Source of the DNA: Hormiphora californensis
Taxonomy: Eukaryota > Animalia > Ctenophora
Direction of reading: 5' to 3'
NCBI GenBank assembly: GCA_020137815.1
Contig: CM035353.1
Coordinates: 5,332,001-5,396,000, forward strand
Length of the DNA: 64,000 nt
Every line of letters begins with the position of its first letter. The first letter of the stretch is position 1. Positions 1 through 50,629 of this stretch are shown here, in pieces. The translations under genes were made by a program, and so were the position numbers. The notes beneath the pieces were generated by a model that had not been told where the DNA came from, searched no databases, and saw only the letters and a program-made list of their open reading frames with translations.

Positions 1-143
1 TTGTCAAAAAGCCCTTACTTAAGGCGCGCCCAATGGGTGTGCTAGTTCAGTAAATTTAGGACCCGTAAATCGAGATTGTTACTATATCAGTGTACATGTT
101 CAGGTGTTATAATAGTTGTTACTATATCAGTGTACATGTTCAG

Positions 144-2564
144 GTCCAGGACGATGAGACAGAACACAGCCTGGAAATGCAATATCCATACATCGCCAAG
201 GTAGATCAAGATGGTATTTGTTATGTTCTAACCCTCCTTACATTTGGGCGGGGCGTGCGAAACACAGTCTAGCTAGGCAAGATGGTATAATAGATGGGAA
301 CCCGGAGAATATCATTCGTTAACCATGATCTATCCAGCTATTTACAGAAATCAGAATCTGTGTCAACAACGGAAGTTGACAGCTTCGTTTTAATATGAAT
401 TTATTTTGCAAAACAACTCCACTCGCCCTGAACGAATTACTAACCATGCTTTCCCTGCAGGTCATGGAAAACTACAGGGACGCCTTTAAAATCGTTTCTG
501 TCATAGTGGGTGACGTCACGCTTGATCTTGGTCGAAAATATGCCAAGGTTAGTTACGCAAATGTAGTCTTACTGTAATTCTGCACCTGCAGCGTTGTAAC
601 TGCATCGAGCGACGATATATAAACAATTTTATTTTACACGAATCTATTTTACACGACTCTATTTTACTCTATATTTCACATCTAGGTGTTCCAACCACTG
701 CTAGCGGACCCTGGTACTGTGTTTGTTGTGTCCTCTGATTTCTGTCACTGGGGCAGCAGGTTCAGATACTGCCACACGGAGGGACCACCTGACCTCCCCA
801 TTTGGAGAGGAATTCAAACTCTTGATAGAATGGGTACGTTATAATACCTGTCAATATGTAGAGCATGTCAAGCCCTGCATGCCACTACTATGACCTGATA
901 CGGCGTATAATTGTTGAGTGTCTTTTACCGGCAAGAAATGACATATATGTCTTATAAGACATTCCCCCCCCCCCGACATCGCAATATAAGCAGCTTCAAT
1001 TCTTGAAGTTCAAGATAAAAAATATTGTTCATACTTTCTTTTTGCGGAGCATGCGACTCCGACTCCTACTCAATCATTAACATTTAATACTTGTTGGTAC
1101 TGCACATGTTCACCGGTATATAGGTCCATGTCACACCAAGTGTAACCAATTGTGTCGCCCTCTCCATGTCACACCAAGTGTAACCAATTGTGTCGCCCTC
1201 TCCATGTCACACCAAGTGTAACCAATTGTGTAACCCTCTCCATGTCACACCAAGTGTAACCAATTGTGTCGCCCTCTCCATGTCACACCAAGTGTAACCA
1301 ATTGTGTCGCCCTCTCCATGCCACACCAAGTGTAACCAATTGTGTCGCCCTCTCCATGTCACACCAAGTGTAACCAATTGTGTCGCCCTCTCCATGTCAC
1401 ACCAAGTGTAGCCAATTGTGTCGCCCTCTCCATGTCACACCAAGTGTAACCAATTGTGTCGCCCTCTCCATGTCACACCAAGTGTAACCAATTGTGTCGC
1501 CCTCTCCATGTCACACCAAGTGTAACCAATTGTGTCGCCCTCTCCATGTCACACCAAGTGTAACCAATTGTGTCGCCCTCTCCATGTCACACCAAGTGTA
1601 ACCAATTGTGTAACCCTCTCCATGTCACACCAAGTGTAACCAATTGTGTAACCCTCTCCATGTCACACCAAGTGTAACCAATTGTGTAACCCTCTCCATG
1701 TCACACCAAGTGTAGCCAATTGTGTCGCCCTCTCCATGTCACACCAAGTGTAACCAATTGTGTCGCCCTCTCCATGTCACACCAAGTGTAACCAATTGTG
1801 TCGCCCTCTCCATGTCACACCAAGTGTAACCAATTGTGTCGCCCTCTCCATGTCACACCAAGTGTAACCAATTGTGTCGCCCTCTCCATGTCACACCAAG
1901 TGTAACCAATTGTGTCGCCCTCTCCATGTCACACCAAGTGTAACCAATTGTGTCGCCCTCTCCATGTCACACCAAGTGTAACCAATTGTGTCGCCCTCTC
2001 CATGTCACACCAAGTGTAACCAATTGTGTCGCCCTCTCCATGTCACACCAAGTGTAACCAATTGTGTCGCCCTCTCCATGTCACACCAAGTGTAACCAAT
2101 TGTGTAACCCTCTCCATGTCACACCTTAAGTGTAACCAATTGTGTCGCCCTCTCCATGTCACACCAAGTGTAACCAATTGTGTCGCCCTCTCCATGTCAC
2201 ACCAAGTGTAACCAATTGTGTCGCCCTCTCCATGTCACACCAAGTGTAACCAATTGTGTAACCCTCTCCATGTCACACCTTAAGTGTAACCAATTGTGTA
2301 ACCCTCTCTCTCTTCCCAGGAATGGATGCAATTGAGACGTTAGATCCTGCTGCATTCGAAAGCTACCTGAAGAAAACCCAAAACACGATATGTGGACGTC
2401 GCCCCATACTGCTCCTGTTATGCACAATCGAGAGACATTTAGAGGTGGTTGGAGGTGCCCGGGGAACACTTAAATTTCTCGATTATTCCCAGAGTAGCCA
2501 ATGCGTGAGAAGAAATGATAGTTCTGTTAGTTATGGAAGCGCGTCACTCACCCTAGATCAGTGA
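144..2564 (+). CDS. MEMO1: MEMO1 (mediator of ErbB2-driven cell motility 1), 3' part; exons 144-200, 461-547, 686-833, 2320-2564; 5' exons outside window
   Basis: GT-AG joined exons keep frame and give [16 protein letters not shown] / [17 protein letters not shown] / [16 protein letters not shown] / GMDAIETLD...NTICGRRPI...YSQSSQC...DSSVSYGS. These are the MEMO-family motifs [25 protein letters not shown]. Confidence 0.93.
218..280. mobile_element. 63-bp mini-element (TTG...CAA family) in MEMO1 intron
   Basis: 8-bp TSD gatggtat at 210-217 and 281-288; same family as 4378-4423, 5218-5276, 15883-15949, 30394-30484. Confidence 0.85.
1125..2308. repeat. 38-bp minisatellite, about 31 copies, in MEMO1 intron, running into the splice acceptor
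   Basis: Unit tccatgtcacaccaagtgtaaccaattgtg(tcg/taa)ccctc, head to tail, no spacers; last unit merges with ctctctctcttcccag (AG 2318-2319). Confidence 0.97.
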
Positions 2565-3146
2565 CGTCATATATAATTAGCGTTAATAAATTATATACAG
2601 ACACTTGTTATATTTTCCTTTAGAGTTTAACTTATGTGTTGTGATGTGAAACACGGAGGAGCTACTCGATATATGTGTTTGGCGTGTCAAATTTCCTTGA
2701 AGTCCTGTCATCCCGAGATAATATATAATTTCATGGAGATTTATCAATTGGACCTTTTATGGAAATTCGAGGGATCTGACTTGACAAGCTGCATCCTTTT
2801 GCGTTATCCCACCGTCCGACATAAATCGCTTTGTGAATCATTTGAGGAAGCAAATTGTTTTCTATGTAGCATATTATATGATATTTATCTGGGCCTATTT
2901 AACTTTTATTAAATACCAAGTTAAGGATGTCACAGTGCTGCTTGTAGTCGTATTACCGTAATGGAAATACAGTAATGAGACGCGCACGTTGCATAACGCG
3001 CGGCAAAAAGTGCATGTGTTCAGCACATACTAGCGCCCTGATTGGCCACGGTTGCGTGTCGTCTTACTGTATCTCCGTTTTCCATTACCGTTTTCCCACT
3101 ACGAGCGACTGTGTTATATATTAGTTCCTCTCTTTCTCTCAAGCCT

Positions 3147-3362
3147 ATAATAGGGACTCCCTTGGTAACGAAATTACTCCTATCTTGCCTGACAACGCTA
3201 AGCTGTTGTCAGAGCATTGGCCTGACAACGCCAAGGTGCACCTCATGCTACCGCCCTGTATGGCGGCGCCATGCCCCATTTGAGCAACAGATGGGCGCCA
3301 GACAGCTACCGCCCTGCCACCGTGGCGGGGTAATTTCGTAACTATAGGCACTCCCTATTATA
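3147..3362. mobile_element. MITE with ~35-bp imperfect TIRs
   Basis: ataatagggactcccttggtaacgaaattac at the left end versus gtaatttcgtaactataggcactccctattat at the right end. Confidence 0.65.
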
Positions 3363-4377: not shown

Positions 4378-4423
4378 TTGCCAGGTTAGACTGTTTTTCG
4401 CACGGAGGGTTAGAACATAACAA
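4378..4423. mobile_element. 46-bp mini-element (TTG...CAA family)
   Basis: TSD ttccatat at 4370-4377 and 4424-4431; ends ttgccaggttagactgt / ggagggttagaacataacaa. Confidence 0.85.
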
Positions 4424-5217: not shown

Positions 5218-5276
5218 TTGTTATGTCCTAACCCTCCTTATGTCCTAACCCTCCTTTACACAGTCTAGCTAGGCAA
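5218..5276. mobile_element. 59-bp mini-element (TTG...CAA family)
   Basis: TSD gcatttta at 5210-5217 and 5277-5284; internal duplication of ttatgtcctaaccctcc. Confidence 0.85.
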
Positions 5277-6857: not shown

Positions 6858-7817
6858 GACTGACTGACTGACTGACTGACTGACTGACTGACTGACTGAC
6901 TGACTGACTGACTGACTGACTGACTGACTGACTGACTGACTGACTGACTGACTGACTGACTGACTGACTGACTGACTGACTGACTGACTGACTGACTGAC
7001 TGACTGACTGACTGACTGACTGACTGACTGACTGACTGACTGACTGACTGACTGACTGACTGACTGACTGACTGACTGACTGACTGACTGACTGACTGAC
7101 TGACTGACTGACTGACTGACTGACTGACTGACTGACTGACTGACTGACTGACTGACTGACTGACTGACTGACTGACTGACTGACTGACTGACTGACTGAC
7201 TGACTGACTGACTGACTGACTGACTGACTGACTGACTGACTGACTGACTGACTGACTGACTGACTGACTGACTGACTGACTGACTGACTGACTGACTGAC
7301 TGACTGACTGACTGACTGACTGACTGACTGACTGACTGACTGACTGACTGACTGACTGACTGACTGACTGACTGACTGACTGACTGACTGACTGACTGAC
7401 TGACTGACTGACTGACTGACTGACTGACTGACTGACTGACTGACTGACTGACTGACTGACTGACTGACTGACTGACTGACTGACTGACTGACTGACTGAC
7501 TGACTGACTGACTGACTGACTGACTGACTGACTGACTGACTGACTGACTGACTGACTGACTGACTGACTGACTGACTGACTGACTGACTGACTGACTGAC
7601 TGACTGACTGACTGACTGACTGACTGATTTACTGACTGACTGACTGACTGATTTACTGACTGACTGACTGACTGACTGACTGACTGACTGACTGACTGAC
7701 TAACTGACTGACTGACTGACTGACTGACTGACTGCCTGACTGACTGACTGACTGACTGACTGACTGACTGACTGACTGACTGACTGACTGACTGACTGAC
7801 TGACTGACTGACTGACT

Positions 7818-7853
<36 letters not shown>

Positions 7854-7884
7854 CACTGACTCACTGACTCACTGACTCACTGAC
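6858..7884. repeat. (GACT)n microsatellite, ~1.03 kb
   Basis: Near-perfect tetranucleotide run; variants only in the 3' quarter, ending in GACTCACT units. Confidence 0.99.
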
Positions 7885-9812: not shown

Positions 9813-10076
<264 letters not shown>

Positions 10077-12179: not shown

Positions 12180-15100
12180 ATGACAAACTGGTCCAGCACT
12201 GCAGCTGCGATATCGATCAACCCCCGCGGAAACGATCTCTTGAATGCTGGAGCTGAAAACTTTATGATTCTTCTAACCGCTTTTCTATCCCTACTGGGGG
12301 TCCTTGGTAACCTCGCGGTGCTTTATGTCCTCAAATCCAACGAGCAACGCTCGGGGAGAAAGGTGCGTACAGCTGTTGGAAACATATGTCATATGCAGCT
12401 GTGTATTTGTATTGCGCTGTGAGATTAATTATAGGGAGAAACTTGTACCAGCTCTTCTATTTTAATTTTGCTAGCGGAAATGATATCCTTAATGTTGAGT
12501 TCCCCCTTACTCAACAAGATATCCTGGAAATAGTTTCATGCGAACTATTTTAACGTGCTCTTTACTGAAAGTCAAATCCTATCTGCAGGTTCCATCGAAT
12601 GTGTTCATTCGGAACTTGGCACTGACTGATCTACTAATTGGATTCCTCATTTTCCCCCTCCTAACCCTGACCCTAGCCCAGGGTCGTAATTGGTCTTTAA
12701 CCGTGGCCGTCTGCCTAATTCATGGTGTTATGGTACGTACAATGATTCACATACTTGAGTTGTCATGTTGGTCACATATACCCATGAAAATAATATTACA
12801 AACAGCGACCAAGGGGATAAGGGGGTTATTAATGATACAACTTGTTGAATTGACTCCATATATATTATATCTACTTTCAAATAATAATTTAAAATTACAG
12901 GTGTCTGTTCTAATAAACGTGTCAGTGTTCTCGCTGACTGGTATAGCACTAGATCGATACCTTGCAGTCACCCAGCCTATATACTACAAGGTATGTTGTA
13001 ACCAGGAACCGACCGAATCAGGAAATACTGGTCCCTGATTGGCTGATAACCAGTCATGTGACCTAAATAACGAGTTCTGATTGGCTGTTTACTTGTTTCG
13101 GTCGGTTCCTGGTTGTAACTCATGTTGTTTATGAAAAATAAGATTTACCTGGCTCCGCCTGAATGAACTCTTTAATCTGTCAGTATTATGAATATAATAT
13201 AATATTATTGATATGCATATAGTCCCATTGGTATATCTCCTTTAGCTCCTTAAACCTGATATCTCAGACTGACCCCGATATACTGACATCTTCCATTTAA
13301 ATTTTGATATATCGATTAATATGTTCGCTATCGTTTCAATGGGTAAATGGGGCGGGGCAAGTAAATTGTCATGGAAGTCATTGAAAGCCTTTCAATTTGA
13401 CTTACATTAATTGGAACTGTCTGGGAAAATTCATCATCGATGTACCCTTGACAAATGTCTAGCAGCTTGAGCTGAGAATTAGCTAGTGTCTCGAATTCTG
13501 AAGAGAGTGCCGAGTTCTGAAGAGAAGAAGAGGAAGAAATATTTTCCCTGCTGCATTATAGTGACAAATAACTTACGTAATGTGATCATCCCGAAGTGAA
13601 GATCATAGACACCGGCACCTAACAGTAACATAGGCTGGGTACTGGGTAGCCTGTCACAGGCTCAAAGGGAAATAGATCTAAGGTTTTTGAGGCTATCCTT
13701 CTGTATTGGGCGAAAACGTGGATATTTTGTCATCCCGTCAATAGGAGCCAACCGCATTATGCATTGCATTGTGTATATCAATTTTTATCCTTTTTCAAAT
13801 CGAATCAAATAACCAAAACTTTGTGTTTCAGATCATTTTAACGAAGCAAAGAGCTCGAGGAATGGTTGTGATATTTTGGATTTCAAGCATTGTCATTGCC
13901 CTCTTACCATTCGCATTTGGAATTACGTAAGTTTAAAGTATTTCTTTGATTCTTAGATTTTAAATGAACTAACCGAAAGTCAAAACTACCCAAAAGTCTT
14001 CTTGTTATACTTTTCGTATTCATCGCTTCGATGTAATGAAAGTATGACTCATATCTTTCATGACATCGAATTAGCGATGAATCATGCGATCCTTGCTCCT
14101 GCATCAGTCTAGACATACGTAATTTTCAAATTCAGCACGGTCATAAAACAGTGATGGCACTATGAGATAGTGTCTGTGCCATAGGTTAGATAGTTTGATT
14201 CTATTATTCGATGTTCTCTTTTTCTTTTCTCTCGTCCCTCGATCTCACTAGTTTTCCTGATCTCAATTCGTTCTCGTTTTCTAACCATCCATTCTTCTCC
14301 AGTGTGCAATTCACACTTGTATTGTTCAAACCCGGGGCAGTGAGCAAATACACATGCGTCGCGTGTTGAACTAATAACTGAAATTAAACTTTTGTGATTG
14401 ACATGTAGAACAATAACGCTAGTACTATTATAGTTCTAGAGTTTAATGAAAAATTGACTCAAATCCAATTCTAATCAAGAAAGAAAGTAGCATAATCATT
14501 AATATATGGTATCATAATATGATTCATATTCATATGGTAAAAGCGCTATAACCATAAACTAAATCAGTTTATGCGTTGATATTATACACCAATTTTTAAA
14601 TTTGTAGGATTTAAATTCAATCTCGTTTATCCTGGTTATCTCTCGTTTATCAAAAATATACTCCCCCCCCCCCCATTTAACCATGCATTTATCAATATCT
14701 CTTCCTCCTCCTTTACCGATCCACCGTTGCCAATTGCTCAACCATCTCTCACCACGTTATTATAAAGGAAGCAAATCGATAACCCCCTCCCCTTCCTTGC
14801 TCAACCATCCCTCCCCTTCCTTGCTCAACCATCTCTCGCAATTATTGTAAAGGAAACCCTTAACCCCCCCTTGCAGCACCCCCCCCCATTTCAGATACAA
14901 GTTATTGTAAAAGATTGTTACCCCCCCCCCCCTCCTCATTTCAGGTACAAGTTTGCACGTTCAACCAGTATGTGCTTGCCAGATCTCACCTCCACGACAA
15001 GCTCGTGTGTTTTCCTCCTCGTTCACACTCTCTTCACCATTGTAATTCCCTTTATCGTCCTGACATACTGCTACATAAGGTGAGCTAACATATGGTGTCT

Positions 15101-18100
15101 TGATGTAGCTGATCAGATCGCTTCATGAAATACATATTGTTTAAACCAAAAATCATGCAAGGTCTCAAGTTTTATTTTGTAAATATGTACTATAATGTAG
15201 TTTCAATTTCATGTTCTTTTCAATTCTTACGCATCCATTATGTTCAGGATTTATACCAAGTTTAAAGTATGTTATGTTCAGGATATATACCGAGTTTAAA
15301 GTTCGTTATGTTCAGGATTTATACCGAGTTTAAGGTACGTTCGGTGCAGCGGAAGTTGTGTACTCGAGCCAAAAGACTTTCCATACAAGTGATGGAGTGG
15401 GGTGCTACACTCCACAATGCCCACACTCGAGCAAGTGATAAAGGTATCTTAGGATAGAGATATATGTGTCATCATTGAATGTACAAGTCCATATGGGAAA
15501 CGCTATTTGTATTCTAGAATATTCTGTCAAACTTTGTCCTACGATCATGATAATATTTCTCATGTCTCCTATATGTCTCATATCATATCTCATACATCTT
15601 GAGAAAATGCTTATTAAGACTTGACAGCTTTTCCTCCACACCTCATTTCTTATCTTTTAATTAAACCATGTCTATTTGCAGTAGGGGGAGGAACTCCGTC
15701 ATTTGGTAATGGCAAGACTCTCCAGACAGTGATTGAAGAAACCAACTCCTCGACAAGGTACACCAAACTTCATTACGGGTACACGCCCTGGCTTTTTTAA
15801 TCATCAAGTGCCCAACCAAATTACTTCACCAAGAAATATCATAGAGCTATGCATGAATATCAAGTACCTTTATTTCCTCAATTTGCCTGACTAGACTGTG
15901 TTTCGGGCGCCCCGCCTTTAAATGTAAAGGGAGGGTTAGAACATAACAATCCTCAATACAAGTACCCTAGTTGCGCAACTCCATCGGGGAAAACTCAATT
16001 TATATAAATGTCAAAAAGCTGCAAATTGCAATGTTAATAATATTTTATAATCTTGCATGCAGCTCTTAGACAGTTGTAGAAATATATTAATATAATAATA
16101 TTAGATTAAATATATTAATGATAGATTTGGTTTCAGCGGTACAAGTCGAGAGTTAAACATGGCAAATATCGTACACCTCCGTGAGCAGTTTGAGCTGAAC
16201 ACAAGCTCACCAGTAGAACCACGAAACAGTATCAAAAGTACCAAGGGAATCCTCAGTAGCAGTAGGTCGTTCTACAATCAAACCGATCTCAGGACAGCGA
16301 TGAAGAAAGTATTTTCGAGAAAAGCTAAAAAGAGAGGTTCGTACTTTCAACTTTGTATCGCTATTATAATTATAGTATATGTAGTGGGTTTGCCATGCTA
16401 CGCAGTCTGTTCGGCACTTTAAGCGCCTCGGGCTCGCGTAAGCTCACACCGGGCCTTCGGCCCGGTGTGAGAGCTGACAGGCAAGGAACATGTCAATAGT
16501 GGGTACTCAATGAGTATACTATTGCAATAGAGCTCCATCAATTCAATCAAGAATTATCATGATATTGCAGGTACCCCAAAATGTATGAGAAATGCGAGTG
16601 TAACAGCACGACTGATCATTGTGTGCTTTCTCTGCTGTTGGACGCCCTACATCTGTAAAACAATCTACACCTTGGTCTACCAAACTAACCGGGAACACAC
16701 CTGGTATCTTTACTTCCACATTGTCGTTTACATATTTGCACTGGTGAGTAAATACTAAATATGAGATGAACTCCAATAGATGAAAATAAGATAAATACAC
16801 CAAATTGGAGTTCAAAATCCAGTTTTGTAGATAATATGTATGTATGTGTGTGGTTAACCAGGCATGAATCTCTGATTATTATCTTGTTGTATTTATATCA
16901 TGAAAATATCTCTTTTTCAGTCGAATTGTGCCTGGAACCCAATGATTTACCTCTCACGAAGTGCTACATACAAAAAGGAGCTTGCCAAAATTCTCATTTT
17001 CAGGTTTGTCATGATACAGTTAATTGGTGACTGAAAGCTAAGAATCACTCGATCCTCACTCTCGATTATGGGCCAAAAATTAAATTTGTGTTTATTAAAC
17101 ACTATTTATACCTTTAAAGGTATCCACTGCACAACTCGACGTTTATCATGTTTCTTCCATTAGATGTCTGATTAAACTGTCAAGTTCTGTGAACGATTAA
17201 ATTAATAAAATATGTGTTGTTGTCAAAGTTAAAGCAACTTTAATGAGTTCACTGAAAACTGATCTGAGATGATATTTAATATAGTGACAATCAGTATCGT
17301 TGACAGTGCGAGAAACATGGGAACTGTCAAATTCCCACGAATCATGTCAATTTGACTCAAACAATTTAATGGGGGAAGGCCTCACAAATTTTACAAGTGT
17401 GATATGACGTCATGAATTATTTAAATTTATACCCTAATTCCACTACCACAGGATGAAGCCTCAAGCGACTGCACCTCGAGATGTTTTAGAGGATATTCCA
17501 GTGCCAATGCGGAATATTCACCGGAAACTAAGTGTTATAGCCGGTATTGAGGTGAGTACGTTTACCACCATCACCAACCACCTTCACCATATGTTGTTAA
17601 TATAGAGTATAATTCCAGTATGTCATATATTGATTTCTGGTGGCTTAGAAATCATTTTCAAAATTGAAATATGAATCCAGAAGTAAATCACTTCACTGAC
17701 TGAAGTTTCTGTCGTTTATCATGACAAATTATATTGAGTGCTCTTGAACAATTTCTTGGACGATTTCATCTTTATAGAAATAATTCTGCAAGCCATAAAA
17801 TACATAAAAGTTTAAAATCTGCTACCATTTCAGCCGCCGATGTTACCGATGCGTTCTCCTTCTGCCTCCCGCTCATCCCCCATCCGACGGTTCTCAGTTA
17901 TCACCGATGATACACCTGAAGAGGTAGGAGGAGGGAAGTTTCTAGCGCCAACCAGGGCTGGTCGTCAGGTCCTTTCACCTTGTTCATCCCAAACACGATC
18001 AGATCCAGCACCCCCTAGAGAGGCCTCTCCTGAAACACACACACCCTCCTCTCCTGAAGCACACATACCCTCGCCTGCACTAGCGGATAGACGTCCTTCC

Positions 18101-18223
18101 CCGTATCCGTTTCGAACGCGGTCATTTAGTCAGCAGAGTGAGAAAAGATCAGGATCGACTAAAAGAGCTAAACTTAATAATTTTCGAAATAATCGGACAC
18201 TTTCGGACGGGCATGACCCGTAG
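12180..18223 (+). CDS. Rhodopsin-like (class A) GPCR, ~598 aa, 12 exons: 12180-12362, 12589-12732, 12901-12990, 13832-13926, 14945-15079, 15316-15443, 15682-15757, 16137-16336, 16571-16743, 16921-17003, 17452-17551, 17834-18223
   Basis: All junctions GT-AG and phase-compatible. Motifs: TM1 GN, TM2 NLALTD, TM3 DRY, TM4 W, TM5 P...Y, TM6 CWTP, TM7 NPMIY. Long ICL3 and S/P-rich tail. Confidence 0.93.
13003..13111. mobile_element. 109-bp MITE (CAGG...CCTG termini, 8-bp TSD; hAT/P-type) just inside GPCR intron 3
   Basis: TIR caggaaccgaccgaa / ttcggtcggttcctg; TSD gttgtaac at 12995-13002 and 13112-13119. Confidence 0.9.
15238..15334 (+). repeat. Three 34-bp copies of the GPCR exon-6 acceptor plus exon start
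   Basis: ttatgttcag|gat(t/a)tatacc(a/g)agtttaa repeated, with AG at 15246-7, 15280-1 and 15314-5. Confidence 0.92.
15883..15949. mobile_element. 67-bp mini-element (TTG...CAA family)
   Basis: TSD tcctcaat at 15875-15882 and 15950-15957. Confidence 0.85.
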
Positions 18224-21340: not shown

Positions 21341-22350
21341 AGGCATTTTGTTATATTAATACTACTATGACATGCATTTTGTAATTCTTAATAAACGCAG
21401 ATTGGGGATTCACGGACTTTTACAATTGTAGGTAGCCTCATAACAATCGCAGATATATAGATATCCAATATCGGATATCAATTGCGAATCACTAATATGA
21501 TAGTAATCGCAGACAACCAATTGCGGATAACTGATCACCAATCCGTTATAAGATATCGCAATCAGTTATCGCGATCTTAGCTATCTGCGATTAGCTACCC
21601 GCGATTGGTTACTACTTACCATATAATTACTTATTTGCGATAAGTTATCGTGATTAGTTATGTGCGATTACTATTATTTATTAGTTATCAGCGATTGATT
21701 ATATCCGCGATTGGTTCTCCGCGATTGTTCTATGATTTTGATTATTAGTCACGGATAATGATCACGGATACGCATTGATAATCAGATATATCTGATACAA
21801 TCAGGTTAGGTACTAATTCGTTTTTTTATCGGATATTTTTAAAATCGTCTTATATTTAAGACAGTCATAACTCTAGATATGACTACCAATTATAACTGAA
21901 AATGCGACAGTAAACCTAATTTTATAAAATAAATTTGATTCAATGTTAATTTAGACTCTGAATCCCTTCTTTCTAGGTGTTTTTTTAAATCGTCTTAAAT
22001 TTAAGACAGTCATAAATCTAGATATGACTACCAATTATATCTGAAAATAAAGCAGTTGACCAACGTTGGCAAAATATAAATCATAAAATCATGATTTTTA
22101 GTTTAATTTGCTCATTTCTAGGTTTTTTTGAAAATCGTCTTAAATCTTAATACAGTCAGATGCCCGTAACTGAAGAACCGTAACTCGGATTTGCTTGAAA
22201 TTTCGAACGTGTGTTTAAGATGTCAAGGCAACATCACGTACCAAGCGACGTGTTCGTAGAACGACGGGAAGGCCGTCTTAAACGCCAAACAAAACTTAAG
22301 ACAGTCATAACTTTTGTTACGACTGTCTGTTTTCTCTGTCCAAGCTTTAA

Positions 22351-26633: not shown

Positions 26634-26635
<2 letters not shown>

Positions 26636-27273: not shown

Positions 27274-27387
27274 CAGTCGGACCCCGATTTAACGGCACCC
27301 TCAGGGTTTCCTATATCGGGGGAAGATTATCGATCCTACCATTACATCGGGGTGCCGTTAAGGGGGGCCGTTAAATTGGGGTCCGAC
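27274..27387. mobile_element. Tc1/mariner-type MITE family cagtcggaccccgattt; other copies ~49188-49343, ~63004-63085, ~63790-63872, fragments ~7940-7975 and ~26205-26232
   Basis: TA-cagtcggaccccgattta ... aaat(t/c)ggggtccgact termini recurring through the window. Confidence 0.75.
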
Positions 27388-28325: not shown

Positions 28326-30030
28326 ATGAATCATCCTTATTGTGTTGGTTGTTACTCTGGCTGCTACTATCCTCGTGCAAGGTTAGTACACATAATTTAG
28401 TGTGTTTATAGGGTTAGCACGTGCAGTAGAGGGTTATCATGTCGCATGATTAGGGTATTTCTCCTGCCCAGGGGTGGGGATTATTGCTGCACCTTGAAGA
28501 GCTATCATAATTCATAAACAATGAATTAGTGAATTGTTTTGCAGGAGATGACACAGTCAGTTGTTATACAGATTGTAGTGCAATAACCTGCATTTACTAT
28601 CAACAACGCTTCTGCCATGGCGGACATTGACGAATCACAAAGTAAGTAACAAACATCTTTCTAGCCCTAAAAGTAAAAATCTGCCTTATCCGATAAATGG
28701 AGTGAATTTTGGCAATTGTCCTTTTTTGCCTAACTGGAAAATCAATCGATTTTCCAGAAACATGTTCGGGTGATGCCTATATTAACCTCCCAAAACCTTC
28801 CAGAAACCTGTTCGGGTGATGCCTATTAACCCCCAATACCCCTTCCAGAAACATGTTCGGGTGATGCCTATTAACCCCCCAATACCTTCCAGAAACATGT
28901 TCGTATGATGCCTATTAACCTCCCAATACCTTCCAGAAACATGTTCGGGTGATGCCCATTAACCCCCCCAATACCTTCCAGAAACATGTTCGGGTGATGC
29001 CTATTAACCCCCAATACCTTCCAGAAACATGTTCGGGTGATGCCTATTAACCTCCCAATACCTTCCAGAAACATGTTCGGGTGATGCCTATTAACCCCCC
29101 AATAGTCAATACCTTCCAGAAACATGTTCGGGTGATGCATATTAACCTGCCAATACCTTCCAGAAACATGTTCGGGTGATGTCTATTAACCTCCCAATAC
29201 CTTCCAAAAACCTGTTCGGGTGATGCCTATTAACCTCCCAATACCTTCCAGAAACATGTTCGGGTGATGCCTACTAACCTCCCAATACCCCTTCCAGAAA
29301 CATGTTCGGGTGATGCCTATTAACCTCCCAATACCTTCCAGAAACATGTTCGGGTGATGCCTATTAACCCCCCAATACCTTCCAGAAACATGTTCGGGTG
29401 ATGCCTATTAACCTCCCAATACCTTCCAGAAACATGTTCGGGTGATGCCTATTAACCCCCCAATACCCCTTCCAGAAACATGTTCGGGTGATGCTACAGC
29501 GTGTCCATCTGGAGAGTCCTGCTACTCAGTTGAGCTCACCATACTGATGACCGGTACCAAGGATGGCGATGAGGATGACATCGAAATGACAACTACAGGA
29601 TTCTATTGCACCTCTAATACCACCTCTATCTCGGAGTCTGAGTGTCAGCTCATTGAGGTGAGATCGTTATTCTTGAGTCACAGCTGACACTTCATGTCCG
29701 CGCGCTACGTATGAACATTTCAACCAGGGTCAACAGATATGTCTGTCCTTCTGCATCACAATTAATTTGATAATTATCCAATTATCCTACAAATCATCGC
29801 GGAGCTATTAATCAAGCTCCGTTAATTGATTTCAGGCTCTAGTGGAGACTACCCTTGTAGACGAGGATGAGTTAGGGTATACCTACAGCAACATAACGGC
29901 AGAGTGTGGTACTCTTGAAGCCTGTGGTGACGCTTGTATGGAAACATACTCGGGCTCCATGGCGGCTGTTCGACCTGCCTTCACCGCCATCGCTATTCTC
30001 CTCATCGCCTCCTTCCTGAATCTTGCTTGA
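28326..30030 (+). CDS. Small secreted Cys-rich protein with C-terminal hydrophobic (GPI-type) tail, possibly Ly6/uPAR-like; exons 28326-28381, 28545-28641, 29476-29657, 29836-30030; needs two +1 frame corrections
   Basis: Corrected reading: signal peptide ILIVLVVTLAATILVQG; VSCYTDC; KTCSGDATACPSGESCYS; FYC; EC; ECGTLEACGDAC; tail AFTAIAILLIASFLNLA. Splice phases match only after the two corrections. Confidence 0.72.
28752..29494 (+). repeat. ~44-bp tandem array (17 copies) of splice acceptor plus first 19 nt of exon 3
   Basis: Unit ctattaac(c/t)cccaataccttccag|aaacatgttcgggtgatgc; the last copy continues into coding sequence (TCSGDATACPSG). Confidence 0.95.
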
Positions 30031-42700: not shown

Positions 42701-45700
42701 TCTTAACCTTAATTTCGGACTGTTTTCTGGTACTTTCCCGGACATGCCGATCGTGCTGGAGACCTTGTCCCGAGGCAAGTTGATCAAACATATTGTCCTC
42801 CAGTTTTTCGAGGTTGAAGTCTTCTTTCTCGGTCACATCATCCGGGTCACTGATCCCCTGATCCTCGCTACTGACATCACCTCGTTTGTCGAGGGTGTCC
42901 TGGCGAAACAGCACCTTTCGAGCCGTTGGTTTAACCCCGAAGTCACGTCTCATCATCACCATGTAATCAATATCAGGAGTTACCTCCCTCGGCTTCGGAC
43001 TGGGAATCTTCTTTTCCTCTGCAACCATCTCACTGATAGTCTCAGGGATTTTAACTTCTACTTTTTGAGGAGGAGGGGGAGGTGAATCTGGTTTAACCTC
43101 CGGTTCTGGAGGTGGGATGAGTTCTCGGAGGGACAGATCATAGTCACTTTCACCAGGTTCAAAATCATGCCTCATAATGCTCTCAAAGTTTACCGTTGTT
43201 GTTGGTATAGTGGTTACATCACCTGCTGCAGTAGTGGTTTGATCTGTATCAGTGATATCATCAGTTTTCCAAGCTTTGGAAATCCGGTGCTCGAATTCAG
43301 CTACCTTTTTACCCACCTCATCTCGCGAGGGTTTTCTTTGATGTGAGGAGACCTTTTTAATTGGATCAACTTTTGATTGAGTCCAACTGATGTCAGCATT
43401 ATCAAGTTCGAAATCTTGCTTCATGGCTTTCATCATTGTATCTGTCTTACCTAATTCAGAGGATGAAGAGGATGAGGAAGAAGATGAAGAAGATGATGGA
43501 ACTTTATCTGTTAAAACCTGGGGAGTCGATATCTCGCTTTTGACGTAGGCGAACTTGTAGCTTCCCGAGTCTTGTGTTGACTCTTCTATAATCGGATCAG
43601 GGAGCTGCGCTGGCTTTGCGGCTCTTGTTCTGGGTTTATTCATATCTTCAAACCTGTCTCGTATTCTCCCAACGTTTTTTGGGCTTGGTTGTGCAGTCAC
43701 CGCAGGTTTAGTTTTCACCTCCTTGTACATTGGTTTTTCTCCCTGAAGGGCACTCTCAAATCTTTCAAAAAGAGTGTTTTCAGTCTCATCTGGTAGTTTG
43801 AAGGTGTGATCATGGAGGATTCTCCGGCGCTCTCGAGCGTAATCAATATCAGGTGAACGTATAAACTTCCTATCCTCTTTTATTTTGGTAACTGCACGGG
43901 GTTCAGCAACCGGTTTGGGACTGGCAGACAGTGGTGGAGTGGATACTTTTGATGTTTTCTTCTTCCCTGTCGACTTGCTGCTCTTCTCGCCTGGGTCTGG
44001 TAAATTGTCACTTTTGATTAGAAAGTGGCGGGGTTTGTTCTGAGCGGGGGTGAGAAGATGGGGAAGCATCACTTTTGATAGATAGTGGCGGGGTTTGTTT
44101 CAATACTTTAGTCCTCACTTAACACTTCTGGTCCTCCCCTTGCTTGATGGTTCAATGGACATTTGATCATCTTTTATTGACGTTGTTGGCGAATCGAAGC
44201 CAATCTTGTAACTTCTTCTCCAGATCTTGCTGTTCTTTCTGCCATTCCAACCCTGATCTCCTGCTGTCCCCTATCATGTGTTTTATTCTCACAGATCGAC
44301 CTTTCTTTCCCTTCGAGTCAGCCGGAGCTCTGGCGTCGTTTTCGCCTCTCTTTACTTCCTTTACTTGACCGAGTGGTTTCGACTGGGCCGGCTTTCTCAG
44401 CAGATTTTTTACCTTCTCGACTTGAGGAACGGTAAATTTTAGTATCCGTTTTTGGTTTAACGGTTTCTTTAGACTTCGAAGTACTTAAACCTTTGCTTCG
44501 TTCACCCCTTTTTGACTTCTTTTCGTGTTTTGAGTTACCACCACCGTCTAGCGTTTTTGAGCTTGATCTTTTAGGCCTTGGCGACACTTCCTCTTCGTCG
44601 GGCTTCGAGCTAGGCTTTTTAGAACGTTGAGACGATCGTTCCCCATCGATATTTGAGCTAGGTTTCTTAGAACGTCGTGACGCAGTCTCTCCGTCAGGCT
44701 TTGAGCTAGGTCTCTTAGAACGTTTAGACGATCGTTCCCCATCGATATTTGAGCTAGGTTTTTTAGAACGTCGTGACGCAGTCTCTCCATCAGGCTTTGA
44801 GCTAGGTTTCTTAGAACGTTTAGACGATCTTTCTCCATCAGGTTTTGAGCTAGGCTTTTTAGAACGTCGCGACGCAGTCTCTCCGTCAGGCTTCGAGCTA
44901 GGCTTTTTCGAACGTTTAGAAGATCGCTCCCCATCGATATTTGAGCTAGGCTTTTTAGAACGGCGTGACGCAGTCTCTCCATCAGGCTTTGAGCTAGGTT
45001 TCTTAGAACGTTTAGACGATCGTTCCCCATCGATATTTGAGCTAGGCTTTTTAGAACGTCGTGACGCAGTCTCTCCGTCAGGCTTCGAACTAGGTCTCTT
45101 AGAATGTTTAGACGATCTTTCTCCATCAGGTTTTGAGCTAGGCTTTTTAGAACGTCGTGACGCAGTCTCTCCTTCAGCCACCTTTGAATTAGATCTTTTA
45201 GACCGTCTCGAGGTAGTTTCTGGCCTAGACCTTGTTGATCTTTTAGATGGGTTATCATGGCCTGTATTTTGACTGGTCTCATCCCCTTTCGAGATGTTGA
45301 TCATCTTTTCGCCATTCTTTGAGGAAGACCTCTTTGATCGCCTGCTATCAACAGGATCCCCTGATTTTGATCTCCCCCTCTTTGACCGCTCTCCATCTTC
45401 TGGATTCTCACCAGCATTGATCTTCATTGATCTTGAACTCTCTCGTTTTGATCGATGCCGGCTATTATCGTCTTTAATGTTCCCTGCTGTCAGATCGTTG
45501 CTTGGCGGGCCATCTCGTTCTGAGCGTGACTTACTTCTTGACCGTGATTTCCTCTCATTATTAGCATCTTCTGATGTTTTTCGGGTCTTACTCCCATTTT
45601 CGCTCATATTGGCTTTAGAAGGTTCCGCCTTTCCATTAGATCTACTTTTCTCACTCTGGCCACTAGCACTTTTTGATTTTCGAAGTGAACGCTGATCTTT

Positions 45701-45790
45701 GCCCTGCTTCACAGTCTCAGATTTGTCACCCCGACCCGCTGGTGTCCCTGCTGCTAAATCACCGGTCCCGCCGGCATTCTTACTAGACAT
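30778..45790 (-). CDS. Giant (~4,000 aa) low-complexity, repeat-containing protein of unknown family; exons 45790-34153, 34057-33977, 33720-33703, 33646-33518, 33305-33158, 31112-30778; interrupted by ~20-25 +1 frameshifts
   Basis: Abutting minus-strand ORFs (490, 478, 144, 86, 280, 577, 90, 1647 aa) share S/E/K/D/P-rich composition, with no introns recognisable between them. Downstream GT-AG exons are all phase 1-1. Confidence 0.75.
31635..33115. mobile_element. Unclassified non-autonomous repeat element in the last intron of the giant gene
   Basis: Many tgcaagggca / tgcccttgca motifs in both orientations; duplicated gaagaacattccta..aagtttcaagtcgatattttaagcagaacggaaaata blocks; starts next to a (TA)n tract. 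Confidence 0.55.
34760..36250 (-). repeat. Coding tandem repeat, 180 bp / 60 aa (4 close copies ~35040-35740 plus diverged flanking copies)
   Basis: KSFS(D/E)NRKMKLSGIGKPITLDIGQQDDEATLYSVDSLPTEPIESKSRRTATE repeated within the 1647-aa ORF. Confidence 0.9.
44600..45175 (-). repeat. Coding tandem repeat, 48 bp / 16 aa (~12 copies, alternating A/B types)
   Basis: GETASRRSKKPSS(KP/NI)D alternating with GERSSKRSK(K/R)PSSKPD. Confidence 0.92.
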
Positions 45791-45865
45791 ATATTATCAG
45801 CAACCACAAAACATTAGTAAACTCGAGTACGGATCATGTCATAGTTTGCTTACTCCCACGGCTAC

Positions 45866-45869
<4 letters not shown>

Positions 45870-45941
<72 letters not shown>
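45870..45941. repeat. (CT)n microsatellite ~80 bp upstream of the giant gene ATG
   Basis: Direct reading. Confidence 0.95.
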
Positions 45942-45943
<2 letters not shown>

Positions 45944-46572
45944 GTCTACCTTAGCTCTGTTTGCCTGTTGTAGAGCTTACACAAATCTCAAATTGTAGAC
46001 ACTGCAAAAATTCCGTCCAGGAGGAAAACACGGTTTGTGGTAAATGTTCTGGCACAGAAATTTATAGGTATTATCCGTTCCTTCTACTTTTCGGGTGAGG
46101 GGGATCAGATCCCTATAATGTGATTCGAGGTCCTCGAATCGAGGACTTCGTCCATTCAAAAGGAAAGTGGGACATGTGACAAGCTTGGTATCATGTGATG
46201 CTGTCAAGTGTCAAATTCGTAATAGCAGCCGACAAAGGCGCATATAAATCCTTCGACCTTCAAGACTAAACAATATTTTTAAACATGTATACACTACCAT
46301 AAACTATAAACAATATTTCAGTCAATGACTAAATTATTTTGTCCAGCGCACCATCTTTCTTGTCGTTCTCGCATCTAAGTTTTTCTACAACACATCGGAT
46401 GCTGTAAAAAAGGCATCTTTCATATCCTGTATTTCTCGATCTTGAGATCCCTTTCTCCATCGCTGATCGCTCTCTCTATTTTTCTATTTTTCTATAGCTC
46501 GGTATAGAGTCCATATTTGTATTCCACATAATATATTTATTTCAAACAAATTAAAATCTATATTTCTCAGTT

Positions 46573-47322
46573 ATGCTTCTCCTCAAGCCCTTTTGGATCC
46601 ACGGCTCAGTGAGTTTCTGGGTGGCGTGTTGGCGGCAGAGGATCACTCCGACCGGCTGGAACCTGGGAACACCCCTCCACCTCCTTATCCTGCTTGCCAT
46701 CTCTGGTGTGTTCATCCGGCTAGAGCTGTGGGTAATAACCCGGAACATGTCCTGGGAGACCATGTTCTATCTGGAGGATATCCATCTCACCACCACGATA
46801 TCCGCCATTATCTCCATGTTCAGTCTGGTACATGTTGTGGTGGCACTGGGCAGCTACCTATTGTCAGTGTACCTCTACCAGAGATACGGAGTCGAGGCAG
46901 TGATTCGATCCTCCTTCATCGGGATGTCCATCTTCTTTGGAGGAGTGTGTCTCTTTCACGAGACCCTTCTTTACTCTGGAAGTAGAGAAGAATACTGGGC
47001 TGGAGTGCCTAAGTCTTCTTTCCTATCCACCCAGCGGTTCACTGATGGCTATTTGATCTTCTGTCTCCTCTTCGCTCCTGTCTTCTACGCCCTGGAACTG
47101 GGCCCAAACTGGGGAGCCCCTGATAGCGGGAAATTCACTATTGCCGTGCGCCGGGAGGCTGTTGGGCATGTTTTGGCTCTGTCTGCCCTTGCTCTTCTCA
47201 CTGGAGACCTGGTCAAGTTTGTCCTGATGTTTTGTGTCGTCTCGTCTAGCTACCTCCTGATTGTGGTACCCCTACAGTTGTGTTCCGAGGTAGGGAGCAA
47301 GGAACAAGAGAAATCAGAGTAA
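46573..47322 (+). CDS. Intronless multipass membrane protein, 249 aa, family not recognised
   Basis: Long ORF with roughly 6-7 hydrophobic segments and a charged C-terminus; acceptor-like tatttctcag just before the ATG. Confidence 0.7.
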   Translation: MLLLKPFWIHGSVSFWVACWRQRITPTGWNLGTPLHLLILLAISGVFIRLELWVITRNMSWETMFYLEDIHLTTTISAIISMFSLVHVVVALGSYLLSVYLYQRYGVEAVIRSSFIGMSIFFGGVCLFHETLLYSGSREEYWAGVPKSSFLSTQRFTDGYLIFCLLFAPVFYALELGPNWGAPDSGKFTIAVRREAVGHVLALSALALLTGDLVKFVLMFCVVSSSYLLIVVPLQLCSEVGSKEQEKSE

Positions 47323-48621
47323 TGTTATATAATGGGCAGAACCTCCGAGCATGAGCAAAAAGGAGCATGAGTAGTAACAAAAAATTGTGTGTGTCCTAAA
47401 TAATACAATTTAGTTGTGAAATATTGTTTGGTATCAATACACCACTAATACCCTGTGATCTCTCATACCATCTTACTTGAGTAACAGTCGTGCCTGAACC
47501 TCAGGTCAAGTGAGTGGCTATTCACCGAGATCTCAGTGACGGCCGTTCAAATTCGAAGCCTGATTTCTCAGAGCGCGCGATGTTAGCGATTTCAGGGAAT
47601 AGCCGTCACTGAACTCTGAAATCTCATATTTCAGTCGTAAACAGCCGTAAAAAAGGGGCACTTGACCTGAGGTTCAGGCATGATTGTTTTCCCCCACTGT
47701 CTCTGAGATCTGACCAGGCATGTAGGGAGACTTTGGGGGATACTGTTTGAAACACACTCACTAGGATCTCCTTCTTCCCCTCTCATACCTTCTGCTATTA
47801 CAAACTCAATGCCCCGGGACCATCTCGTAGAGCTCGGTCCGTAGCGTTAGTATACGGACCGCGCAAATCAATTGTCATTGTCGCCACCTTAGGGGAAACT
47901 CTAGCTGAATGGAGTTCCATTGCATAAGTTCCATCATCACCAAAACTCTAGCTTTTACGTATAGGGCACAGTGACATAAACAGCCGTTTAGAATGTAACG
48001 ATCAATGGATCATCTCCATGCCGTGAGTATCTCCAATGTAGCTATTAATAATATAATGGTGGGGGAGGGTGAATTAGCCGTTCCTGAATCTCAGGTTCTG
48101 GTGACGGCTTTTTACCCCTGAGACTTGAGATCTCAGGGCCATTCTTTGCTATCCTCTGAAAATTTCTTTAAAATCTCAATAGCCGTCACTGAACCAAAGA
48201 GTAAATAGCCGTGACCTATAGGAACCTGAGATTCAGGCACGACTATTTCCCCCAGTAGGTAAACATTTTCAATTAGATATCTTATCTTCTACGGAAGCGC
48301 TCATGAATAAGTGGGGCCGGGGTAAGATTTTGCGATGTTTCGAAAATGCCATAACTTCAGATGCGATTCCCGGACCTGGTGACATTTTTTAAACATTTTT
48401 ACATCTAATTTTTTGGATTACACGTAGAAAAGTCTCGGCTTCCAGACAATTGGTTGGTAGAAATAATGCTGATAAATTCATATAAATTGCTACACAATTG
48501 AATGGCACTAATAATTGTACAAAATATTTCGGTAAAAACCTATTCGTCCTGCAAATATATATGAATACTGAAGAAGTTCCAATTTGCCAAAACTGATGAT
48601 GTTATGTATAACAGTATGCAC

Positions 48622-48867
48622 TCAGTACTGGTAGTATTGTCCATGATAATGGTAGTCCCGATACCAATGATCATATGGTAGATGGTCATGGGGTGGTGGA
48701 GGGTAATGTCCCGGAGGTGGAGGGGGAGGATGGGGTGGTGGCGGTCTGCTAGCCTCAGCCATCGCCACACAGCACAACACGCACAGCATTACAATACAGT
48801 AAATGATAAGTGCTAGAAGGACAAGGAGAAGGATCGCTACTACGATGCTCCCTGCTGCGTGGGACAT
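48622..48867 (-). CDS. 81-aa single-pass membrane protein, juxtamembrane Cys, Pro/Tyr/His-rich tail
   Basis: IVVAILLLVLLALIIYCIVMLCVLCC followed by PPPPHPPPPPPGHYPPPP...YYQY. Confidence 0.7.
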   Translation of the reverse strand: MSHAAGSIVVAILLLVLLALIIYCIVMLCVLCCVAMAEASRPPPPHPPPPPPGHYPPPPHDHLPYDHWYRDYHYHGQYYQY

Positions 48868-49605
48868 GTCAGATGCAGAGTCTTTGAAGAAATATCAAAA
48901 TGTTACAGTCCTTGAAATTTGGAGTAGGTTAGTTGGAAGCTGGATCTCTACTGGTTTTAGAGGTTGTGGGTTTTCTTCTTTGCCCACTTCTTCACATGAT
49001 ACATGACCTACAGGGAAAGAAATAGAAGTCACTTATAGTCAGTGTCGGGTGGTTACAATTGCAACTCATCTAAATTAAAACGTAAACAAAATCCACATAA
49101 CTTTATTTTACAATAAGACTTTCTACTTTAAATATATATCGTAGGTTAATTCGACCTACAAAATCAAACACACATTATTATCAATTACAGTTGGACCCCG
49201 AATTACCGGGCCCCGATTTACCAGGAGGATAATATTCTCCCGAAATAGGAAATGAACAGTATTTGACCCCGATATACCGGGCACCCCGATTTACTGGGCA
49301 AAATCCTTTCCCCCGAGGATCCCGGTAAATCGGGGTTCGACTGTAATTTCGAAATATATCCGTTTCTTGGAAAAGATATGGCCAAATCTATTTCAACAGT
49401 TTCTAGTAAAAAGCCACCGAAAGAATTGAATCACTCGCTTTCAGAAACCTTATTTACTATGGCCGTGGTCTATAATATAGCTGCCCGTCTATATACCTAC
49501 CCGTACTACGATCAAATAGGCACAAATCTTGGTATGTTCTAACCCTCCTTTACATTGTAAAGGGGTGCGAAAAGAGAGGATCAATCAACTCAAATGGAGC
49601 TGCAG

Positions 49606-50629
49606 CTACTGTCGTGGAGGTCCACCGGGTGGGGGTGGTTCTTGCATTGTATCATATCCAGGTCCTTCCCCACCCTCTATTAACACCTGGAACGTTATTG
49701 AAACCGCTAAATGAAAGCTTTCGGAAATGCATTTCAAATTATTTAAAATGGTATCAAGCAAATCTCAAGATAAAATCCATCATTCACATAGTATCCTAAT
49801 TCACGATTTAATGACCACAATGGTTTTACAATGAGTTAATTATTGAGTTAATTAATGAATTACCTGTTCTAAGTTCTCGTCATCGTATGGTGATGAACAG
49901 CAACATGAACAGCAACACTTTCTATCCTCACGACACGTGTAGCAACACGTGGAACAGCATCTGAGGAGGGGGGGGGGTCAGCATCTGAGGAGCGGGGGGA
50001 GGGGTCAGCATCTGAGGAGGGCCGGGAGGGGGTCAGCATCTGTGGAGCGGGGGGGGGGGTCAGCATCTGAGGAGGGCCGGGAGGGGGTCAGCATCTGTGG
50101 AGCGGGGGGAGGGGGGGGGGGTCAGCATCTGAGGAGGGCCGGGAGGGGGTCAGCATCTGTGGAGCGGGGGGGGGGGGGGTCAGCATCTGAGGGGCGGGGG
50201 GATCAGCATCTGAGGGGGGTCAGTTCGAGATTGGAGCTGCAGGCAGTATGAATATTATCTTAACTGTAGTAAACAAACAATTACGATATATAGGTACTAA
50301 TCAACAATTCAATACAGACACTAGCATGTGTGTTACACTTTTACAGACACGGCTGGGAGTTGCTCACATAACGTTGGTGCTTACACATTTACACACACGC
50401 TGAACTATACGAGATGAAGCTAAACTGTAAAATGGCGATCCATAAACGAGTTGATTCTAAAAACATGCTCCAAATTTCTAACATTTCCCAAAACATTGAA
50501 ATCAAAATATGCTGGATAAGGATTAAAAATTAGTTACCTTCCATGCCTGCCACAGCTGAAGTACCAAATAACACCAATTATCACAATAAAGATGATAGTG
50601 GTAAATGCTCCCACCCATTCATACGACAT
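49606..50629 (-). CDS. Small TM + Cys-string protein, paralog 1; exons 50629-50538, 49960-49864, 49686-49606
   Basis: MSYEWVGAFTTIIFIVIIGVIWYFSCGRHGRCCSTCCYTCREDRKCCCSCCSSPYDDENLEQVLIEGGEGPGYDTMQEPPPPGGPPRQ; GT-AG, phases match; absent from the ORF track. Confidence 0.85.
49955..50223 (-). repeat. 10 tandem copies (23-34 bp) of branch point, poly-C, AG and first 6 exon nt
   Basis: Minus-strand unit ac-ccc...ctc(ct/ca)cag|atgctg; cagcatctg on + at 49955, 49979, 50006, 50034, 50061, 50089, 50123, 50151, 50181, 50204. Confidence 0.93.

What the first reader, a model, noticed from the sequence alone, without database searches (positions are those of the whole stretch)
76..50223. Recurrent tandem amplification of 3' splice sites: decoy-acceptor arrays in four unrelated genes
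Seen: intronic tandem repeats here are tied to the intron/exon border. Copies include the AG and first exon bases at 76-145 (x2, MEMO1), 14880-14953 (x2, GPCR), 15238-15334 (x3, GPCR), 28752-29494 (x17) and 49955-50223 (x10). At 1125-2308 (x31) the unit carries the branch-point/pyrimidine region. In all five AG-containing cases only the most 3' copy gives the protein and every upstream copy meets a stop within ~2-17 codons. Established: the usual model selects the first AG after a branch point; tandem duplication across a splice junction is a proposed route to intron gain/sliding; NMD removes PTC transcripts. Inference: this lineage may have a mutational process focused on acceptors plus a last-acceptor (exon-definition or re-splicing) rule. 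Alternatively, copy number tunes expression through unproductive splicing.
Basis: partly seen in the sequence, partly recalled or inferred. Interest (0 to 1): 0.85.

Follow-up and report, generated by a model that had tools for sequence, protein, structure and literature searches.

The report
Splice-acceptor "mirage" repeats in comb jelly
In what is likely a comb-jelly genome, five intron/exon borders in four genes are copied head to tail 2-17 times into the preceding intron, a repeat type already known from lancelets as "mirages" and likely harmless because the cell would keep splicing at the last copy; only their apparent preference for intron ends remains open.

Summary
All six arrays exist. 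The host is likely a ctenophore. Five arrays repeat an authentic splice acceptor plus 2-26 exon bases, and all 28 upstream AG copies meet a stop within 2-20 codons. That pattern needs no special rule: only 24.5% of simulated duplications stay open, so five of five closed has p≈0.25. This is a known repeat type: amphioxus "mirages" (PMC3087553), with human donor-side counterparts (PMC1557585). Use of the last acceptor is known from duplicated globin sites (PMC5389562). This scan noted it before in at least 6 other genomes. No RNA covered any array junction; homologues support the last-copy exon models for three arrays. What remains open is an acceptor-side tilt: 5 of 30 acceptors against 0 of 29 donors (p=0.052), and 8 of 10 intronic duplications end at an acceptor. 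That rests on one pre-selected window. One GPCR array allows a second in-frame route through a new 68-nt intron. The gene with the 17-copy array carries two frameshifts, likely assembly errors. Verdict: real, a new member of a known kind.

The parts
76..145 (+). MEMO1 acceptor duplication: 30 bp (28 intron bases including the AG, plus 2 exon bases) twice, with a 10-bp filler; authentic AG ends at 143, upstream AG at 103
   Evidence: exon model aligns without gaps to Mnemiopsis MEMO1
630..667 (+). 15-bp x2.5 repeat ending 18 nt before the MEMO1 acceptor at 685; no AG copied; not in the finding
1125..2308 (+). 38-bp x31 minisatellite ending 11 nt before the MEMO1 acceptor at 2319; does not include the authentic AG; recurrent unit variants (A x20, B x6, C x2)
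144..2564 (+). MEMO1 3' exons (144-200, 461-547, 686-833, 2320-2564), open frame
12180..18223 (+). Rhodopsin-family GPCR, 12 coding exons, open frame of 598 codons
14879..14953 (+). Diverged duplication across the GPCR acceptor at 14944 (upstream AG at 14894, stop after 5 codons); older C-rich copies reach back to 14734
15238..15341 (+). 34-bp x3 array across the GPCR acceptor at 15315; each unit holds an acceptor, 19 exon bases and a donor-like GT
15267..15334 (+). Possible newborn 68-nt GT..AG intron (Rogers type) that would give a same-length GPCR from the first acceptor; untested
28326..30030 (+). Small secreted Cys-containing protein with a hydrophobic tail, 4 coding exons; its homologue P0121 has no Pfam family; two single extra bases against P0121
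28752..29494 (+). 44-bp x17 array: branch-point-like TTAAC, C-rich tract, AG and 19 exon bases; 16 of 17 copies keep the AG; last acceptor at 29475
49600..50629 (-). Small single-pass TM, Cys-rich gene (exons 50629-50538, 49960-49864, 49686-about 49606), one of a cluster of similar genes
   Evidence: four neighbouring introns spliced in run X1
49955..50223 (-). 17-34-bp x10 array: CTGAC, poly-C tract, AG and the first exon bases; last acceptor at 49961; upstream copies stop after 2 codons
59263..59353 (-). Duplication ending 12 nt before the acceptor at 59251 of a lectin-like gene (name from recalled motifs); no AG copied; not in the finding

Best explanation
These are 'mirage' minisatellites: short tandem duplications that cross a 3' splice site and likely survive because the spliceosome would keep using the last acceptor, the one next to the full exon, so the spare copies leave with the intron. 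Shown: the copies, their AGs and stops, the branch-point-like motif in each copy of the two large arrays, and recurrent unit variants. Inferred: birth by slippage or break repair at 2-3-base microhomologies (or with a short filler), growth by ordinary minisatellite turnover, choice of the last acceptor by exon definition, and removal by selection of any duplication whose inner copy is used. They are likely by-products, not switches.
For: Arrays and stops. Same anatomy described in amphioxus Adh3, globins, troponin C and PGBD5, reported not to disturb splicing (passages), and at human donors (abstract and introduction). Duplicated beta-globin 3' splice sites with 14, 55 or 205 nt of exon beside the inner site spliced exclusively, though inefficiently, to the distal site (passage). 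MEMO1 built with the last copies aligns to Mnemiopsis MEMO1 over 176 residues without a gap, and homologue P0121 aligns without a gap across exon 2 and the last copy of the 17-mer array. Only 24.5% of 12,650 simulated acceptor-spanning duplications are in frame and stop-free, so five of five closed has p about 0.25. The decoys are not worn down: 16 of 17, 10 of 10 and 3 of 3 copies keep the AG, and in the 17-copy array the 15 upstream AG copies score 6.9-9.7 bits against 7.7 for the last. Recurrent variants (AABAADACAAAABBBC...; alternating units at 49955) fit real repeat turnover.
Against: No RNA covers any array junction, so last-copy use in this species is inferred, and rare use of upstream copies is untested. 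The reading does not itself explain the 8 against 0 acceptor tilt, three cases of which copy no AG. In the GPCR array at 15238 the last acceptor scores 0.8 bits, below all 25 array-free acceptors (minimum 1.1), while the first scores 5.4. The gene with the largest array has two frameshifts; if they are real, that array sits in a dead allele and says nothing about splice choice. Introns here are short (median 177 nt), where intron definition might be expected to favour the first AG (own knowledge).
Confidence: 0.7

Rival explanations
1. Acceptor-focused duplication bias. In this lineage local duplications arise more often at intron 3' ends than elsewhere, for example because C-rich pyrimidine tracts slip or form G-quadruplexes on the opposite strand, or because the DNA before exons is more exposed. 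This adds to the best explanation rather than replacing it.
For: 8 of 10 duplications touching the 30 modelled introns end within 20 nt of, or across, an acceptor; none starts within 20 nt of a donor. Expected 1.94 each; P(A>=8)=9e-5; symmetry test p=0.008. Three of them (630, 1125, 59263) copy no authentic AG, so decoy tolerance does not explain them. A C-run of 5 or more lies in 3 of 5 array acceptors against 2 of 25 others (p=0.022, post hoc).
Against: The window was picked for this pattern from a very large scan, and 6 of the 8 cases were in the finding. The cases new to this check are 2 acceptor-side, 0 within 20 nt of a donor and 1 at 27 nt (p=0.5). Direct acceptor against donor test p=0.052. 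Thresholds were chosen after looking. An earlier unchecked note on another genome found donors hit as often as acceptors (e1-7908560).
Confidence: 0.25
2. Intron birth in progress in the GPCR. The first acceptor (15247) is used, 19 bases form a micro-exon, and the duplicated stretch 15267-15334 is removed as a new 68-nt intron (Rogers model).
For: The route is GT..AG, in frame, and gives the same protein length with one E-to-K change. The donor scores 7.6 bits (real donors 3.0-12.2), and the first acceptor is stronger than the last (5.4 against 0.8). 68 nt exceeds the shortest intron modelled here (65). Duplication-born introns were shown in a minigene, spliced at 6-16% (section read).
Against: The new acceptor is a weak AAG (1.8 bits) without a pyrimidine tract, and two weak acceptors would have to be bypassed. 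The matrices rest on only 25-29 sites. No RNA was laid on this gene and no homologue was found for the exon.
Confidence: 0.12
3. Copy number tunes expression: upstream copies are used at some rate, yield stop-containing RNA, and are removed by NMD.
For: All 28 upstream AG copies lead to stops and many score like real acceptors. In two human donor VNTRs (6-16, CBS) the nearest spare sites are used (introduction).
Against: Stops are the default outcome. The four genes are unrelated and the units share nothing beyond the splice site. No conservation or expression link was shown. Amphioxus mirages are reported not to yield aberrant mRNA.
Confidence: 0.07
4. Assembly artefact: the arrays are expansions or haplotype mixtures made by an error-prone long-read consensus.
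For: The window holds uncorrected single-base indels or dead alleles: 6 extra and 2 missing bases against homologue P0122, about 15 frame breaks in 38978-44365, and two extra bases in the gene of the 17-copy array. No DNA run holding these arrays was available.
Against: Multi-base variants recur at several places within arrays, and copies differ in ordered ways. Single-base consensus errors do not build 743-1184-bp arrays. Exact copy numbers and poly-C lengths may still be wrong.
Confidence: 0.06

Closest known systems
Amphioxus 'mirage' minisatellites (Adh3, globins BflGb6/BflGb9, troponin C, PGBD5); PMC3087553 and PMC3902484, passages read; the original Adh3 paper was not seen
   Same: Head-to-tail copies spanning an intron/exon border, units of tens of bases (Adh3 10-72 bp), splice signals kept in many copies, normal mRNA reported. 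BflGb6 is acceptor-side.
   Different: Here a likely ctenophore with short introns; five cases in 64 kb, all acceptor-side, whereas amphioxus has both sides. Haplotype length variation and mRNA were not testable here.
Human splice-donor VNTRs (F7 intron 7; 6-16, CBS, LMNB2, PDGF); PMC1557585, abstract and introduction read
   Same: A minisatellite repeats an authentic splice site many times; the site next to the full exon is used, and the spare sites can work but do not compete.
   Different: Donor side, where the first copy is used; here acceptor side, where the last copy is likely used.
Experimental duplicated 3' splice sites of beta-globin (Reed and Maniatis design); PMC5389562, passages read; the 1986 paper was not seen
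   Same: The inner site carries a truncated exon piece; splicing went exclusively to the distal site.
   Different: Two copies in HeLa extract with inefficient splicing; here natural arrays of up to 17 copies in another phylum.
Rogers-type intron gain by tandem duplication; PMC3265369 (abstract and one results section), PMC2891723 (passages)
   Same: The GPCR array at 15238 has a GT and an AG placed so that a 68-nt intron would restore the frame.
   Different: The classic case duplicates exonic AGGT only; here the unit includes the old acceptor, and splicing is not shown. The other four arrays lengthen an existing intron.

Membership tests
Mirage minisatellite | Head-to-tail repeats of a short unit | tested here: met
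   the two 2-copy cases are single duplications, one with a filler and one diverged
Mirage minisatellite | Unit spans an intron/exon boundary | tested here: met
   5 arrays cross the acceptor by 2-26 exon bases. The 1125-2308 array does not (ends 11 nt short) and is an ordinary intronic minisatellite
Mirage minisatellite | Copies keep the splice signal | tested here: met
   16 of 17, 10 of 10, 3 of 3, 2 of 2 and 2 of 2 copies keep the AG
Mirage minisatellite | Normal mRNA uses the authentic site | tested here: inconclusive
   No RNA over any array junction; homologues fit last-copy models for MEMO1 and the 17-copy gene, which shows the ancestral protein, not splice choice in this species
Mirage minisatellite | Copy number varies between haplotypes | not testable with these tools
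   No genome held, no DNA run offered, no match in metagenome contigs
Rogers-type intron gain (GPCR 15238-15341) | Duplicated site leaves GT..AG in register, at least a minimal intron apart | tested here: met
   68 nt, in frame, same protein length; about 60 nt named as the minimum in PMC3265369
Rogers-type intron gain (GPCR 15238-15341) | The new intron is spliced in mRNA | not tested
   No reads were laid on the GPCR; both read-laying runs went to other stretches
Recursive splicing / re-splicing ladder | Each upstream AG is followed directly by a usable GT donor | tested here: not met
   Only MEMO1 103/104 has AG directly followed by GT; that donor scores 2.7 bits (real minimum 3.0) and would leave 40 nt, shorter than any of 29 modelled introns

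The most novel reading that the evidence does not exclude
Ctenophore genomes duplicate DNA preferentially at intron 3' ends, so that roughly one acceptor in six carries spare copies while donors carry almost none, and in a GPCR here such a duplication has already split an exon with a newborn 68-nt intron. This would be a direction-biased, splice-site-linked mutation process feeding intron gain in the earliest-branching animals.
Probability: 0.2. Interest if true: 0.6.

Novelty: new member of a known kind. Interest (0 to 1): 0.27.

Why it matters
As it stands it extends mirage repeats to a likely ctenophore and offers natural test beds with up to 17 near-identical complete 3' splice sites, for asking how a short-intron animal picks its acceptor. 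If the acceptor tilt held genome-wide, it would tie local duplication to splice-site sequence or chromatin and give a measurable route to intron lengthening and gain. It also warns gene predictors, which may pick an upstream copy.

Tried and rejected
RNA: one search gave 2 runs. On 46000-55400, run X1 showed 4 spliced introns of neighbouring genes and one piece near the 3' end of the array gene, but nothing across the 10-copy array; X2 gave only short repeat-like pieces. On 26800-28800 neither run covered the exons. Lack of cover proves nothing.

Other DNA: no whole genome is held. P0121 found no related locus among 138 pattern matches, and the 25-base junction motif had 0 matches in metagenome contigs. 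GPCR exon 5 found 0 relatives.

Rejected readings: recursive splicing; conflict with first-AG scanning, since each copy in the two large arrays has its own YTRAY (the motif is recalled, and lies 15-40 nt upstream in 12 of 25 array-free acceptors); 'poison' design.

Dropped rows: a possible multi-exon gene at about 56900-58620, the 3' exons of the giant gene and 5' UTR or trans-splice acceptors were left out of the 30/29 site set because I could not model them. Of 52 local duplications, 42 touch no modelled intron and were not counted. Phases in the simulation came from my own models for 22 of the 25 array-free acceptors.

Papers: three could not be fetched. Searches for a ctenophore report and for a genome-wide acceptor-versus-donor count listed nothing on point; I saw listings only, and subscription journals are missing. 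Supplements of PMC3087553 (mirage alignments) were not opened and could show how often amphioxus copies keep the AG.
Full report
Setting. The window is gap-free animal DNA with compact genes (0 N; 29 modelled introns of 65-1486 nt, median 177). The MEMO1 model matches Mnemiopsis leidyi MEMO1 best among the 122 proteins fetched (66% over 176 residues, no gap), so the host is likely a ctenophore. No whole genome is held, so every count below is for this one window.

Observation. All six arrays are present. Five cross an acceptor: 76-145 (MEMO1), 14879-14953 and 15238-15341 (a rhodopsin-family GPCR), 28752-29494 (a small secreted protein, homologue P0121) and 49955-50223 (a small TM, Cys-rich gene on the minus strand). 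With the last copy as acceptor, MEMO1, the GPCR and the TM gene read open from end to end. All 28 upstream copies that keep an AG meet a stop after 2-20 codons. The 1125-2308 array stops 11 nt short of the acceptor and is an ordinary intronic minisatellite. Copies show recurrent and alternating variants, which fits real minisatellite turnover.

Corrections to the finding. One of 17 copies has lost its AG, and the first reads 20 codons. The gene with the 17-copy array has one extra base in each of exons 1 and 2 against P0121. The neighbouring giant gene has about 15 frame breaks, and its homologue P0122 (81% identical) reads through 6 extra and 2 missing bases. The excess of extra bases suggests patchy long-read consensus error (own knowledge), but dead alleles are not excluded. 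In the GPCR array at 15238 there is a second way to a full protein: first acceptor, a 19-base micro-exon, and a 68-nt GT..AG intron at 15267-15334.

Is the 'poison' pattern special? No. Of 12,650 simulated duplications across array-free acceptors, 67% shift the frame and only 24.5% are in frame and stop-free. Five closed of five has p about 0.25. Copies within an array share one stop, so they are not independent events. Nor is first-AG scanning broken in the large arrays: all 17 and all 10 copies carry a YTRAY motif upstream of the AG position (motif recalled). The choice is among whole splice sites. The MEMO1 copies and the copies at 15238 have no such motif within 45 nt.

Is there an acceptor bias? 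A duplicate spanning the splice dinucleotide occurs at 5 of 30 acceptors and 0 of 29 donors (Fisher p=0.052). Against other AGs the excess is strong when known arrays and the giant coding region are masked (p 2.5e-5 to 3.5e-4) and absent when they are not (p 0.23-0.30). Of 52 local duplications, 10 touch a modelled intron; 8 end within 20 nt of or across an acceptor, none starts within 20 nt of a donor, and one starts at 27 nt. A placement null expects 1.94 each (P=9e-5; symmetry p=0.008). However, the window was chosen for this pattern and 6 of the 8 cases came with the finding. The new cases alone are 2 against 0 (p=0.5). C-runs are commoner at array acceptors (3 of 5 against 2 of 25, p=0.022, post hoc). 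The tilt is a lead, not a result.

RNA. Two runs were offered. X1 splices four introns of genes next to the 10-copy array, which supports the style of exon model used, but no contig crosses any array junction. Homologues fit the last-copy models: MEMO1 across both of its arrays, and P0121 across exon 2 and the last copy (77 residues, 81%, no gap). This shows the ancestral protein, not how this species chooses among copies.

Mechanism. Inferred: a duplication seeded by a 2-3-base microhomology (15238, 49955, 1125) or laid down with a short filler (76, 28752) copies the intron tail and exon head. Only the last copy sits beside a full exon with its downstream donor, so exon definition likely favours it. 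The spare copies leave with the intron, are not selected against, and grow like any minisatellite. Their AGs are kept and, in the 17-copy array, score like the last copy, as expected if they cost little. Against this, the last acceptor at 15315 is weaker than any array-free acceptor (0.8 bits against a minimum of 1.1), which keeps the intron-birth route open.

What is known. Tandem copies of intron/exon borders are named 'mirages' in amphioxus, occur on both sides, vary between haplotypes and are reported not to disturb splicing (PMC3087553 passages; PMC3902484 passage). Human F7 and four other genes repeat a donor, and the site next to the exon is used (PMC1557585 abstract and introduction). 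Duplicated globin 3' splice sites with 14, 55 or 205 nt of exon were spliced only at the distal site (PMC5389562 passage). Intron birth by duplication was shown in a minigene (PMC3265369 section). The name 'mirage' reached me through this scan's earlier notes, which list 19 such acceptor findings in at least 6 genomes and 17 donor findings in at least 11; I then checked it in the papers. The word ctenophore was met in none of those notes, and four paper searches (listings only) showed no ctenophore case and no genome-wide acceptor-versus-donor count.

Verdict. A real cluster of mirage repeats, likely neutral, new only in its host and its density. Interest 0.27. The open points worth a genome-wide test are the acceptor tilt and the possible 68-nt new intron.

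Noticed in passing
window 34152-45772 (-): A giant low-complexity coding region (about 3,900 codons) with about 15 frame breaks between 38978 and 44365 and none in the following 4.8 kb; homologue P0122 reads through 8 of them. Patchy assembly error or a dead allele.
   Followed up: partly
window 28326-28641 (+): One extra base in exon 1 and one in exon 2 relative to P0121 break the frame of the gene that holds the 17-copy array.
   Followed up: partly
window 57291-57337 (+): Duplicated pyrimidine tract ending right at an AG (57338-57339) in an unmodelled multi-exon stretch at about 56900-58620; a possible further acceptor-side case, not counted.
   Followed up: partly
window 9816-10075, 26732-26757, 45870-45941 (+): (CT)n microsatellites followed by an AG within 0, 2 and 11 nt; possibly 5' UTR or trans-splice acceptors whose pyrimidine tract has expanded. 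Three other (CT)n tracts have the next AG 24-47 nt away.
   Followed up: partly
window 59880-59919 (-): Short duplication 27 nt after a donor that repeats a donor-like AAG/GTAAAC; the only donor-side case among the 10.
   Followed up: partly
window 48600-53260 (-): Cluster of about six small single-pass TM genes with Cys-rich cytoplasmic starts; four introns confirmed by run X1.
   Followed up: partly
window 13000-13118 (+): Small element with terminal inverted repeats just after a GPCR donor, likely a MITE (read by eye).
   Followed up: no
window 22350-23660: Large near-perfect inverted repeat; the ORFs at 22544-22852 (+) and 23152-23460 (-) are identical. Likely a foldback transposon.
   Followed up: no
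window 6858-7884: 1-kb (GACT)n microsatellite at 98% identity.
   Followed up: no
window 61592-62515 (-): 307-codon ORF with a coiled-coil and a C-terminus resembling LINE ORF1 (recalled likeness).
   Followed up: no
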